Part shown: piece after piece, positions 1 through 46,700 of the stretch
Position numbering within the stretch: position 1 is the first letter of the stretch
Layout: the number at the start of each line of letters is the position of its first letter
Assembly (NCBI GenBank): GCA_964106915.2
Contig: OZ066915.1
Source: Podarcis gaigeae
Taxonomy: Eukaryota
Strand: one strand, 5' to 3'
Length of the DNA stretch: 64,000 nucleotides
Program-made: the position numbers and the translations under genes
The notes under the pieces: generated by a model
What the model was told of the DNA's origin: nothing
The model's database searches: none
Seen by the model: the letters and a program-made list of their open reading frames with translations, nothing else

Positions 1-94
1 CAGTTCAATGGAGGATTCAGTCAAGAACAGCTGGATTGGCTTGATGAAGTCCTTACATATGCTGACAAAAATCAAGAAAGAGTTGTAATTATGG
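1..94 (+). CDS. ADPRM: ADPRM penultimate coding exon (5' part lies outside the window)
   Basis: Frame 1 reads [32 protein letters not shown], matching Mn-dependent ADP-ribose/CDP-alcohol diphosphatase. Phase-1 donor G|GTAAGA at 94/95. Confidence 0.93.
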
Positions 95-821: not shown

Positions 822-957
822 CAGTGTTTCCCAACCTTGGGTCTCCAGCTGTTTTTGGACTACAGTTCCCATCATCCCTGACCACTGGTCTTGCTAGCTA
901 GGGATGATGGGAGTTGTAGTCCAAAAACAGCTGGAGACCCAAGGTTGGGAAACACTG
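822..957. mobile_element. Palindromic hAT (Charlie-type) MITE
   Basis: CAGTGTTTCCCAACCTTGG...CCAAGGTTGGGAAACACTG with near-perfect arms of about 60 bp. 8-bp TSD CCCTAGGA / CCCTAGGG (814-821, 958-965). Confidence 0.9.
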
Positions 958-1926: not shown

Positions 1927-2237
1927 GGCACATACCCATCCACCCCAATTCTTCAAGCGATGTCGCCCTGGCTTGGAATTATAAAGATACCCTTTCTGTC
2001 ATCCACTCGCATCACTCTGTGGTGTGCTATCTTGCAGGCCACCTTCATTTTGGTGGATACTGTTTAGACTCTTATGGAGTTCACCATGTTACTCTTGATG
2101 GGATTATAGAAACTCCTCCAGAAAGCCATGCTTTTGGAACTATACATGTCTATCATGACAGGATGGTATTAGAAGGAAGAGGAAGGATTCTAGATCGAGT
2201 GATGCATTACAAAGGTTATCAGACTTTTCACAGATGA
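1927..2237 (+). CDS. ADPRM: ADPRM last coding exon
   Basis: Pyrimidine tract and TTGCAG acceptor. Reads (G)[44 protein letters not shown]...[44 protein letters not shown]. Contains the metallophosphoesterase His ligands (xH and GHxH). Phase matches the previous exon. Confidence 0.95.
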
Positions 2238-2559: not shown

Positions 2560-3373
2560 AATTAGTGGCTGGACACCTTCTGTTTAAAATATTAATAATT
2601 GCATATTTACTCAAGTCTGATTATCATACCGTTTGAAGGCTGGACCAAAAGCAAGACTCATAATATTACAGATCATATTTGCAGTGCATTTCACTTTGCT
2701 TGTAGCTTCTAGCACAGAAACTGATGGGTTATTATGCTCTCTCTTAACCTATATTGCCTTACTTGAGACACACTACAGCTTCTGCTTTCTGTCACATCTT
2801 AGTAGGACTGCAAGCTAATCATCAGCATATTGTAATGTGCTCTGCAGATATGTCCAAATGAGGTAGGTGGGGTGTGTGACAGTAAAATTCATACGCAATT
2901 CCAGACAGATTGCTCAGAGACCCAGTTGTTCTATTACAAGTAGTTTTAATTACAGTCTGTAAAACATACAGACACTGCTGTCCCTTCAAGGCTGTTCTGC
3001 AGCTTCAGCTCCACTGGTTTCAGCAGTAAGTTCAAATCACCTCTAGACTCCAGCTACTTCCACAGAAGCACCTGTTTAATTTGATCCAATCCCTTGCAGG
3101 TACCAAGGGCCTGTAGTTAATGCAGCCCTAACCCATGTGGCCTTATTGCAGATATATTATTTCCTTGAAAATCTAGACCAGGATCCAGAAAATTCCATTC
3201 TAATTGTGCTCCAGTTTCCAGGACTCAAGAACATAACAGACAATTTAAAACCACACTCTCAAGGGAACAAACTGATCTCAGCCATGGCTGTGATCGCTGT
3301 TGATTTGGCACAACTGACAAATCAGAGCTGGACAAATAGGCACTAGAACACAGATTCCTTCATTTCCACCTTC

Positions 3374-10326
<6,953 letters not shown>

Positions 10327-10879
10327 TGCTCGCTCGCGTGCCCGCCCCTCTCCCGCCCCACCAGTGGAGAGAGGCGCTCGATTGACCTCAGGCGTGCTCA
10401 TACACGCCCCTTACAAAGCCCCCCGCCCTGCACTCGTAGTCCTGCCATGCACCGCCCACGCCGCGCTCTTCTGACGAAGCGGGCAGGGTCCTCGCCGAGC
10501 GCTGTTGTTCAGCAGAGGGAAAGTTCAGCGCCACAACCGGGAGGCGGAGCAACGCAAGGCAGCTGCCAATCTCTGCTTCAGACCCAGTGCCGGATTTACG
10601 TATAAGCTAAACAAGCTGTAGCTTAGGGCCCCACTCGCTTGGGGGCCCCCAAAAAATGTAAAGGGGGGGGGACTGGATGTACATTTCCAAAATATAAGAT
10701 AAATTCAACAATTACTTTTGTAAAATACATATTTTGTTATGTTCAAATGGCTTTAGATACCCATTAGGTTCATAAATTACCATATAGCATATACAGTATT
10801 CAACCCAAAAACAGCTACAATTTGTTGTTGAAAAAGGTCAGCTGGACACATAAAGGGCCCCATTACATTCAGTAGCTTT

Positions 10880-43700: not shown

Positions 43701-46700
43701 GTGTATGTTTTTGTAAACAGGTTCTGGATGTTCAGCCTTGTAGCTGCAGAAGACAATTAGCAGGACATCAGTTTACTTTTTTGTAGGATCTGGGGTGTCT
43801 GTTTCCCTATAGGTTGTTTTTTCTCAGGTTTATTTAAAAGCACGAGTATTTCATATTACCAGTATCCTGCAATGTGCTAGAAGATTGGGAGCAATTAATG
43901 CCCAACACCTGTGTAATGTGATTTCTAAGACAAATTGCTTTATCTTTAGCAGGTGCAAATGGCAAAGCTTACAATTGAATTTCTATTTATTCTTTTTTGT
44001 TTCAGCTTCTCTCAGCTTCTAAATTCTTTTCTTTTCCTTTTTCATTCATTAACATTTTGTAGAAAGGTCTTGTAGGTGGTTTATTTATGACACAGACAGG
44101 AATTCAGAGATGCTGATAGATTATTTTTTTGCTCGGTATTATGTTGCCTCTATATTTATCTTGTATAGCTGAATCTATATTAAAGATGACATACCAAGAT
44201 CAGGGGATGATGGAGAAAGGGAGAGAGATACTTCATCATCTTCAGAAATTGGTGTTATTATGTAATGCCAAGCCTTTGTATTGCACCGTTCGGTATTTCC
44301 TCTTTTGTGGCAAACTGCAGTTGTAAGCCATGATCAAACCATGGTTTGCATTTCAGATTGCAGACAAACTTTGGTTTGCACAAACTATGTTTTTGCCTAT
44401 TTGGATGTAACTGCAAACTGGTTTGCCACAAAAGAGGATGTGTAACAGTGTGCAATGGGAGGAAGGTGTGTACATGCCCAAGGCTCTGTTTGAATTGAGC
44501 CAGTGTCTAGGAACTAAAAAGCCTTAGATCAAGCCTTTTTGCTATCTAATATTCTTTCATTGGTTTTAGAGGGTCTTTCTTGAATTCATGTTTGGACTTA
44601 TTCCAAAACTAGTATTGCAGTGCTTTTGTTGAGTTTGCTAAGTAATTTGATTAATTTCCCATAATTTTACTTGAGTGATTACTTCTGAAGTATTCTCTGC
44701 TCTTACCATAATCACAGTTTGTGATAAATGTACAAATATCCACATTAAATTTTCAGCTATCAGGTTTGACAAGTTCCTTGGTTCAGGGCTGAGAGGAAGG
44801 GCTTTAAAACTATGAAGCACTTCTAAAATTGCAGCTGAAGAGCCCAGAGTTTAACAGTCCAATCCTAAACATGCTTAATAATAATAATAATCCTACTGAA
44901 TTCTTTGAGACCTTCCTCTTACAAAGTAAGCTTCATTTTCAAACATTTGACAGTGATGGGTAGAAGATACTGGAGACTTTCACATTTGTCTTGAGATGAA
45001 CACTGTTCATCAAAAATAGAAAAACTGTATTTCTTCATGCAGAGCCACTTGTCAGCAAGAAAAGAAACCTAACACAGCTGTGGAAGTCTGTTCGACCCAA
45101 TGTAAAAAAATCCTTTATTACTGACGCAAAATTCTGCACACTTCTTCTAGCCTTAAAATATGCACCAACGGCTTTGTGGCTTTTTGACTAATCTTCTTTT
45201 ACTTCAAAAATACACTGACAGAACATTGGCTCTGCATGTATTTTTGGAGTTAACATGATCCCTTCATTTTTTTCTGTTTTCTATTAATATTTATAAACTC
45301 TTCTCGGAAACCCAACAGCCACAGGTATGGGTTTTCTTTATGGTGTTATCAATGCAGGCAATAAAAGGAGAAAGACAATCACCAGCCTAAACTTAACTCT
45401 AGAAGAATGTAGTTGCTTTATGTTACGTAGCATAACTAATATTATCCTTCTGCATTTCATAGGAATATAATAGTTTTATGCAGGAATTTATAAACAACCA
45501 CAGAAATAGACATACAGTTATTGTAATATAAGAGACAGATGGTCTTGATTAATAGCTAAAAAAAAAATTTAGTTGCTTTAGGTGCAATTGTTTACAGTAT
45601 CCTGCCCTGTTACCTCCATCTAGATTAGATCCTTCATGGAAAGTATATTATTGCATTAGCTTTATGTTCACTACTCTGTATAAATGCATTTAATGAGTGC
45701 TGTAAGAGAGAGAAAGTTTTCAATTGATATAAAATGTGGCAAAATTCCTTCCCAATTTTTTTTTTGGCAGAGAGAGACTGAGAACACACAGCATTGAATC
45801 ATCAGGAAAATTGAAGATTTCCCCTGAACAACATTGGGATTTTACTGCGGAGGACTTGAAAGATCTTGGAGAAATTGGACGAGGCGCTTATGGTTCTGTC
45901 AACAAAATGGTCCACAAACCAAGTGGGCAAATTATGGCTGTTAAAGTAGGTGATGCCCGTAATTCTTGTACTTTCCAACTGCAGGGGCAATATATAGTGG
46001 ATAGTTTAATATCCATCCATCTTGCGCTCAGCAGTTGTTTGCTTTCCCCCGCTATCTGTATATTTTGCCTTGTAGTTTAGTGTTATTAAATACTTAACTG
46101 GTTTGTAAAATTATGGGTTATAAAATTTAAGGAGAACATCTAATATATGTAAGCTTCTTTTTAACACAAACACTGTATATATACGGAGACTCTTTATCTC
46201 TAGGTTCCTGGTTTTAAATCCAGCTCAGGTTTATTATTATTAAATGCAGTTTTGCAGTGCTTTGTCAGGGTGCTTTGTGAAACAAGCTAGTTGCCTTGCT
46301 ACAGTAGTTTTCATTTTTCCTACTTATCTACTTGCACCAGTGTGTTTTCAAACTGCTATGTTGGCAGGAGCCTCGGACAAAGCAACAGGAACTCACCCCA
46401 TCATGTGGATTCAAACTGCCGACCACTCATTTCTTGTAATACTCTTTTAACAACACTGGGCTATAAAATAACTTGGAGTGAAGGCAGAATTGAGCCCTGT
46501 ACTCAGTCCAGTTATCAGCAAATATACTGGCATGTTTCATAACATGTAGGACACTAGTCATCAAGTATAATAGGAATAGAAGAGGGCATGACCAGTATGC
46601 TTTATGGAATATTAAATGTTCTTCACCCTGCTTTTTCCAGTATCTGTGTCTGTGAGCTACATAAGTGACTTCTGGCCTAGAAGGAATCCATTCTGTCTTG

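What the first reader, a model, noticed from the sequence alone, without database searches (positions are those of the whole stretch)
1965..1967. ADPRM naturally has Ala at the human Cys253 position: possible cyclic-ADP-ribose phosphohydrolase shift
Seen: [18 protein letters not shown] (GCC at 1965-1967). Counting without gaps from the metal-ligand His (human H241, codon 1929) puts this Ala at 253, and puts GHLH at H278/H280 as expected. Established (recalled): human ADPRibase-Mn reads HLPIYPDASDNV-C-LAWNY, and the C253A mutant was reported to raise catalytic efficiency on cADPR roughly tenfold. Inference: the lizard enzyme may degrade the Ca2+ messenger cADPR better than the human one, a CD38-independent turnover route.
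Basis: partly seen in the sequence, partly recalled or inferred. Interest (0 to 1): 0.72.

Follow-up and report, generated by a model that had tools for sequence, protein, structure and literature searches.

The report
Lizard ADPRM carries natural Cys253Ala swap
A lacertid lizard's ADP-ribose-splitting enzyme ADPRM has alanine where the human one has cysteine 253, a swap that makes the human enzyme about tenfold better at destroying the calcium messenger cyclic ADP-ribose; the lizard enzyme likely still prefers plain ADP-ribose, and similar small-residue swaps recur in birds, an elephant and a duplicated shark copy.

Summary
GCC at 1965-1967 is Ala260 of an intact, single-match, 349-aa lacertid ADPRM and aligns without gaps to human Cys253. 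Human C253A does raise kcat/KM for cADPR 11-fold (PMC4334965). The lizard keeps Phe37 and Leu196, and human C253A alone still prefers ADP-ribose about 23-fold. Zebrafish and rat both have Cys yet differ 150-fold on cADPR, so background outweighs this site, and the lizard is only 59% identical to human, with Ser250, Leu279 and Phe281 nearby. Loss of Cys253 is recurrent (13 changes on a 122-row vertebrate tree, always among Cys/Ser/Ala/Gly), and a control buried Cys behaves the same way. CD38-type exons are present in this genome. For the idea: all 20 other squamates have Cys, while three lacertid lineages show Ala, Gly and Ser. Best reading: an ordinary ADP-ribose/CDP-alcohol diphosphatase with a likely enlarged cADPR side activity, and no shown adaptive route. 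A stronger lead lies outside the window: a tandem shark paralogue combining non-aromatic 37, Gly253 and mostly Phe196, close to the engineered cADPR-specific enzyme.

The parts
1965..1967 (+). GCC, Ala260 of lizard ADPRM = human Cys253 position (floor of the substrate pocket by the authors' docking models)
   Evidence: role from PMC4334965 and PMC5773619
1927..2237 (+). Last coding exon of ADPRM (311 nt with stop), AG acceptor at 1925-1926
   Evidence: junction 94>1927 (GT..AG) in RNA reads of a related coded organism, 4, 6 and 6 reads in 3 of 3 RNA runs
1..94 (+). 3' part of the preceding coding exon (117 nt, starts 23 bases before the window, G000:C2:39741978); encodes Phe217 = human Phe210. 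The first coding exon (622 nt, G000:C2:39739899-39740520) lies upstream and carries D26, Q28, F38, R44, D73, N109, H110, L203
1929..1931 (+). His248 = human His241, conserved metal-site His
   Evidence: 0 changes on the 122-row tree
1956..1964 (+). Ser257-Asp258-Val259 = human Asp250-Asn251-Val252; Asp250 is replaced by Ser, Val252 is kept
   Evidence: D250A lowered cADPR efficiency in the engineered human background
2040..2051 (+). His-Leu-His-Phe = human H278-T279-H280-D281; Leu279 is the usual sauropsid state, Phe/Leu281 is the lacertid state

Best explanation
[quoted passage not shown] Shown: all nine metal/catalytic residues and the ADP-ribose preference residues Phe37 and Leu196 are present; Cys was lost on the lacertid stem and the site now holds Ala, Gly or Ser. 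From human biochemistry: the dimetal-bridging water attacks the pyrophosphate, Arg43 and His111 stabilise and orient, Phe37 stacks on adenine, and the 253 side chain hinders the northern ribose of cADPR. Inferred: that the relief of hindrance carries over to the lizard pocket, and that exchange among small residues is near-neutral.
For: Open 1050-nt CDS, 349 aa, GT-AG introns; one match in the genome. D25, Q27, F37, R43, D74, N110, H111, L196, F210, H241, V252, H278, H280 all kept. AF2 model of the 97%-identical P0038 (pLDDT 92) matches zebrafish ADPRibase-Mn 2NXF at E 6e-47, rmsd 1.5. Human C253A: cADPR 44,000, ADP-ribose 1,000,000 M-1 s-1; cADPR preference was reached only in mutants that also carried F37A+L196F. 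On a 122-row vertebrate tree position 253 is C 96, S 13, G 7, A 6 with 13 changes, against a median of 11 over 318 columns. The control Cys column 273 likewise varies only to A/S/G (C115 A3 S2 G2). One three-state column in the lacertid crown is what column rates predict family-wide (1.2 expected). Among unnamed 50%-cluster representatives the site is freely variable: C35 T20 A8 N5 S5 G5 and 6 others, in 84 of 149 rows that matched the motif. Plants have Ala naturally.
Against: Position 253 was named beforehand and is the only three-state column of 318 among six lacertid rows; two changes inside the crown have P about 0.002 at the site's own average rate, so the site runs fast there, which fits relaxation but also selection. 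20 of 20 non-lacertid squamate rows and 50 of 52 further fish, amphibian and shark rows keep Cys, so Cys is normally constrained. Human C253V leaves ADP-ribose efficiency unchanged (690,000), so the main activity alone does not explain why no larger residue is seen. No lizard enzyme has been assayed; no codon-level selection test was possible.
Confidence: 0.62

Rival explanations
1. Adaptive shift: lacertids were selected to open the pocket so that ADPRM turns cytosolic cADPR over to N1-(5-phosphoribosyl)-AMP at a physiologically useful rate, beside CD38.
For: Cys lost on the lacertid stem with all three states smaller than or similar to Cys; Ala and Gly are exactly the two human substitutions that favour cADPR; fast change at this site in the crown. 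With an assumed 10-100 nM enzyme, human C253A constants give a cADPR half-life of 26-2.6 min against 289-29 min for wild type (the enzyme level is my assumption).
Against: Phe37, Leu196, Val252 kept. Loss of Cys253 goes with loss of aromatic 37 in about 1 of 5 independent pairs, the shark paralogue (too few pairs for a test). CD38-type exons with open frames are present, so it is no stand-in for a lost gene. Three different residues fit drift as well as one optimum. KM of 200 uM in C253A is far above cellular cADPR levels (recalled).
Confidence: 0.12
2. No real gain: the lizard background decides cADPR activity, and the small residue at 253 only offsets bulkier neighbours (Leu279, Phe281), leaving cADPR hydrolysis human-like or zebrafish-like.
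For: Zebrafish 28 vs rat 4,160 M-1 s-1, both with Cys. Identity to human is 201 of 339. All 69 sauropsid rows have L/V/M/Q at 279, a position near the northern ribose, and most changes at 253 fall in sauropsids, 42% of tree length (11 of 13, P 0.002; 6 of 8 if bird events are merged by recalled phylogeny, P 0.06). Ser250 replaces Asp250, and D250A hurt cADPR most.
Against: Most Leu279 species keep Cys253, so offsetting is not required; the bird part of the tree is poorly resolved and inflates counts; many Cys-bearing squamates also lack Asp250. No coordinates were available to measure pocket volume.
Confidence: 0.21
3. Loss of a reactive thiol (oxidation or metal mis-binding next to the dimetal centre) was favoured, unrelated to cADPR.
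For: All replacements remove the thiol; the thiol lies near the metal site without binding it.
Against: The lacertid protein has Cys at human position 38, at the pocket rim, so there is no general thiol loss; no data on thiol sensitivity were seen in the parts of the three papers read.
Confidence: 0.04
4. Assembly error, pseudogene or misalignment.
For: None found.
Against: Gapless alignment, open CDS, same residue in other assemblies and 4 of 4 runs, spliced RNA reads.
Confidence: 0.01

Closest known systems
Human ADPRM / ADPRibase-Mn (EC 3.6.1.53, NP_064618.3) and its C253A mutant (PMC4334965)
   Same: Orthologue by tree; all metal and catalytic residues, Phe37, Leu196, Phe210, Val252 kept; Ala at 253 as in the mutant.
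   Different: 59% identity; Ser250, Leu279, Phe281, Cys38 near or at the pocket; the change is natural; activity not measured.
Engineered specific cADPR phosphohydrolase F37A+L196F+V252A+C253G (PMC5773619)
   Same: Small residue at 253 (Gly in Lacerta agilis, P0028).
   Different: The lizard has none of the other three changes, which remove ADP-ribose preference. The shark paralogue matches far better (D/G37 and G253 in 8 of 8, F196 in 6 of 8) but has polar Q/N/H/E at 252.
Zebrafish ADPRibase-Mn (PDB 2NXF; PMC3407115)
   Same: Only PDB sequence hit (E 1e-103) and best fold match.
   Different: Cys at 253 and Asp at 279; almost inactive on cADPR (28 M-1 s-1).
Plant ADPRibase-Mn-like proteins (Arabidopsis NP_974609)
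   Same: Natural Ala at the 253-equivalent, noted by the 2015 authors as a possible better cADPR hydrolase.
   Different: Non-vertebrate; no assay found in searches.

Membership tests
ADPRibase-Mn / ADPRM family (metallo-dependent phosphatases) | Five dispersed metal-site motifs (D25-x-Q27, D74, GNHE 110-111, H241, GHxH 278-280) | tested here: met
   All present; Pfam Metallophos 42 bits over cut-off 21.5 for the 97%-identical P0038. The last exon alone has no significant Pfam hit.
ADPRibase-Mn / ADPRM family (metallo-dependent phosphatases) | Family-specific s2s3 (Phe37, Arg43) and h7h8 (Leu196, Phe210) elements | tested here: met
   F38, R44, L203, F217 in lizard numbering.
ADPRibase-Mn / ADPRM family (metallo-dependent phosphatases) | Fold of prototype 2NXF | tested here: met
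   Model of P0038: TM 0.87/0.96, rmsd 1.5; next hit E 7e-13.
ADPRibase-Mn / ADPRM family (metallo-dependent phosphatases) | Orthology to vertebrate ADPRM, one copy | tested here: met
   Nests with Lacerta and Zootoca (support 100), sister to Rhineura; one genome match (a lower bound).
ADPRibase-Mn / ADPRM family (metallo-dependent phosphatases) | Mn2+-dependent hydrolysis of ADP-ribose and CDP-alcohols | not testable with these tools
   Needs an enzyme assay.
cADPR-preferring phosphohydrolase (engineered type) | Small residue (Ala/Gly) at 253 | tested here: met
   Ala.
cADPR-preferring phosphohydrolase (engineered type) | Loss of aromatic residue 37 | tested here: not met
   Phe kept in all six lacertid rows.
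cADPR-preferring phosphohydrolase (engineered type) | L196F and V252A | tested here: not met
   Leu and Val kept.
cADPR-preferring phosphohydrolase (engineered type) | kcat/KM ratio cADPR/ADP-ribose above 1 | not testable with these tools
   Human C253A alone gives about 0.04.

The most novel reading that the evidence does not exclude
Residue 253 is a natural specificity dial in vertebrate ADPRM. Lacertids opened it (Ala, Gly, Ser) under selection and use ADPRM as a working cytosolic off-switch for cADPR beside CD38 (about 0.12), and sharks went further: a tandem paralogue with Asp/Gly37, Gly253 and mostly Phe196, kept next to an ordinary copy, would be the first natural cADPR-preferring phosphohydrolase, converging on the enzyme that was engineered in 2015-2018 (about 0.3 on its own; outside this window).
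Probability: 0.15. Interest if true: 0.75.

Novelty: new variant of a known kind. Interest (0 to 1): 0.4.

Why it matters
Whether ADPRM is a real route of cADPR turnover is an open question in the three biochemical papers found; their authors proposed looking for natural enzymes without Cys253 and described the residue as extensively conserved in vertebrates. The lacertid series (Ala, Gly, Ser on 94-97% identical backgrounds, Cys in the sister Rhineura) is a ready natural test of the steric model, and the shark paralogue pair offers a same-genome comparison for a cADPR-preferring enzyme. For the lizard alone the expected result is a modest gain in a side activity.

Tried and rejected
Artefact or pseudogene: rejected. 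Uniqueness among vertebrates: rejected; elephant Ser is already visible in the 2015 paper's S3 alignment, which has no row named Podarcis. Compensation for CD38 loss: rejected, three PF02267 matches over the cut-off on G000:C19 and further exon-like frames including an N-terminal membrane segment (whole gene not assembled, CD38 versus BST1 judged from recalled features). Three lacertid states as proof of selection: not accepted, since 1.2 such columns are expected family-wide. Covariation of 253 with 37: too few independent pairs. Pfam Toxin_28 at E 0.42 on the last exon is below cut-off and ignored. First structure model (P0001, an isoform with another N-terminus, pLDDT 64) was not used. Run search listed no holder on record as RNA; the RNA evidence comes from laying raw reads of a related organism, and its low depth was not used to rank expression. 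One search's variant table is truncated, so it was not used for absence of variants. Literature: searches gave the same three biochemical papers; others gave nothing relevant by listing; the library lacks most subscription papers, including the original rat cADPR paper. No earlier scan finding matched. Docking or pocket-volume work was not possible: no coordinates reach the script machine and the paper's PDB supplements cannot be read.

Full report
Observation. The window's 1927-2237 stretch is the last coding exon of ADPRM. CAC at 1929 is His, and twelve codons on, GCC at 1965-1967 is Ala. Against human ADPRM (P0171, fetched) the exon aligns without gaps from His241, so the Ala sits on Cys253 and GHLH on 277-280. 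With 20 kb of upstream genome the gene assembles into three coding exons of 622, 117 and 311 nt with GT-AG ends, an open 349-aa protein in which the residue is Ala260. The genome search gave one match. Six full-length unnamed proteins of the same 90% cluster also have Ala; four of four runs from three coded organisms cover the codon with no difference; three of three raw RNA runs of a related organism show the 94>1927 junction with 4, 6 and 6 reads. The tree places the protein with Lacerta agilis (328 of 349 identical) and Zootoca vivipara (330 of 349), so the animal is a lacertid.

What the papers say. PMC4334965 (abstract and 12 passages; section 16 with Table 1; S3 alignment part 1 of 9 and a term search): wild-type human kcat/KM is 590,000 for ADP-ribose and 4,000 for cADPR; C253A gives 1,000,000 and 44,000, so ADP-ribose stays about 23-fold better. 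The authors call Cys253 extensively conserved in vertebrates, note Ala in plants, and suggest seeking natural cADPR hydrolases among proteins without it. PMC5773619 (parts 1-3 of 6; whole supplement): cADPR preference was reached in mutants carrying F37A+L196F, Gly253 and Ala252 improve it, D250A and T279A lower cADPR efficiency, and C253V leaves ADP-ribose unchanged and cADPR at 3,000. PMC3407115 (12 of 14 passages): zebrafish 28 versus rat 4,160 on cADPR; the zebrafish structure sequence has Cys at this site, as does the Rattus rattus record. So species background moves cADPR activity 150-fold with Cys fixed, more than the 11-fold of C253A.

The other residues. The lizard keeps all metal and catalytic residues and Phe37, Leu196, Phe210 and Val252; it differs at Ser250, Leu279 and Phe281 and is 201 of 339 identical to human. 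A model of the 97%-identical P0038 (pLDDT 92) matches 2NXF at rmsd 1.5. It therefore passes the sequence and fold tests for ADPRM and fails two of three sequence tests for the engineered cADPR-preferring type.

Position 253 across vertebrates. I built a FastTree tree of 122 rows: the window's protein plus 121 of the 304 candidate proteins then held, one per species or paralogue, dropping isoforms, truncated and redundant rows, with columns 250-254 left out. The searches list only their best 120 hits (of 1007 and 258) and 15 members per cluster, so the survey is not exhaustive. States: Cys 96, Ser 13, Gly 7, Ala 6; 13 changes, close to the median of 11 per column. All 20 non-lacertid squamates have Cys, including the sister Rhineura and the tegu, so Cys was lost on the lacertid stem; inside, the window's group has Ala, Lacerta Gly and Zootoca Ser. 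Ser also occurs in swift, piciform, kingfisher, shorebird, cuckoo and broadbill rows and the elephant, Ala in Sapayoa and Serilophus. A further 52 fish, amphibian and shark rows gave 50 Cys and 2 Gly, both shark paralogues. Among unnamed distant representatives, 84 of 149 matched the motif (65 dropped) and only 35 have Cys.

Selection or drift. For selection: 253 was named in advance and is the only three-state column of 318 among the lacertid rows, with P about 0.002 at the site's average rate; Ala and Gly are the substitutions that help in human; Val, harmless to the main activity in human, is not seen. For drift: 1.2 three-state columns are expected family-wide; another mostly-Cys column (273) also changes only to Ala, Ser or Gly; three different end states fit free exchange among small residues; the adenine-stacking Phe37 is untouched; and a CD38-type gene has open exon frames on C19. 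A third possibility is offsetting: every sauropsid row has L, V, M or Q at 279 and most 253 changes fall in sauropsids, but the significance depends on unresolved bird branches (P 0.002 to 0.06). Protein data cannot separate these.

A stronger lead outside the window. All 8 such proteins examined (Chiloscyllium punctatum and plagiosum, Hemiscyllium, Stegostoma, Rhincodon, Carcharodon, Pristiophorus, Heterodontus) have Gly253 and Asp or Gly at 37; 6 of 8 have Phe196; the nine metal and catalytic residues are kept in the 6 checked. The ordinary copies checked in 7 of these 8 species have Tyr37, Leu196 and Cys253. This resembles the engineered F37A+L196F+C253G enzyme (cADPR/ADP-ribose ratio 15), though 252 is polar (Q, N, H, E), 250 is Asn, and fish backgrounds may be zebrafish-like. 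It is one evolutionary event and untested.

Verdict. Real and reproducible residue change in a known enzyme; likely a larger cADPR side activity, unlikely a change of specificity; no lizard, bird or shark assay turned up in searches, which cover open-access text only. New variant of a known kind, interest 0.4, carried partly by the natural Ala/Gly/Ser series and the shark paralogue.

Noticed in passing
Proteins P0156, P0158, P0163, P0165, P0427, P0429, P0431, P0453 (sharks; not in window): Tandem ADPRM-like paralogue with Asp/Gly37 and Gly253 (8 of 8) and Phe196 (6 of 8), beside an ordinary Tyr37/Leu196/Cys253 copy: a natural look-alike of the engineered cADPR-specific enzyme.
   Followed up: partly
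P0028 (Lacerta agilis), P0032 (Zootoca vivipara): Gly and Ser at 253 on backgrounds 94% identical to the window's protein; Gly is the engineered optimum.
   Followed up: yes
P0025, P0114, P0143, P0160, P0161, P0279 (amphibians): A second amphibian ADPRM-like group with altered 37 (5 of 6 non-aromatic or His), lost Leu196 and often basic 250, but Cys253 kept; may have another substrate preference.
   Followed up: no
P0135 Sapayoa, P0140 Serilophus, P0128 Smithornis, P0094 Psilopogon, P0192 elephant: Independent Ala253 in two Old World suboscines (Ser in Smithornis); Psilopogon has Ala252+Ser253; elephant has Ser253.
   Followed up: partly
P0001, P0030, P0031, P0033-P0035, P0039: Annotated lacertid isoforms that lack either the D25/Q27/F37 segment or the last exon with three metal-site His; they would be inactive if made.
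   Followed up: no
window 822-957: High-copy palindromic element in the last ADPRM intron with terminal inverted repeats and a near-perfect 8-bp flanking duplication, hAT-MITE-like (label recalled).
   Followed up: no
window 4406-5247 (+): Two overlapping open frames that look like the 3' end of a LINE ORF2 (label recalled; no Pfam hit).
   Followed up: no
L002 3203-3463 (-); window 9829-10410 (-); window 45733-46080 (+): Neighbouring exons that look like SCO1 (head to head with ADPRM), TMEM220 and MAP2K4 (names recalled; only the kinase gave a Pfam hit, E 2e-4). In human several genes lie between TMEM220 and MAP2K4 (recalled); not checked here.
   Followed up: no
G000:C19:4567442-4587733 (L004-L006): CD38-type ADP-ribosyl cyclase exons with open frames, followed by an HTRA-like first exon near 4611845 (name recalled).
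   Followed up: partly
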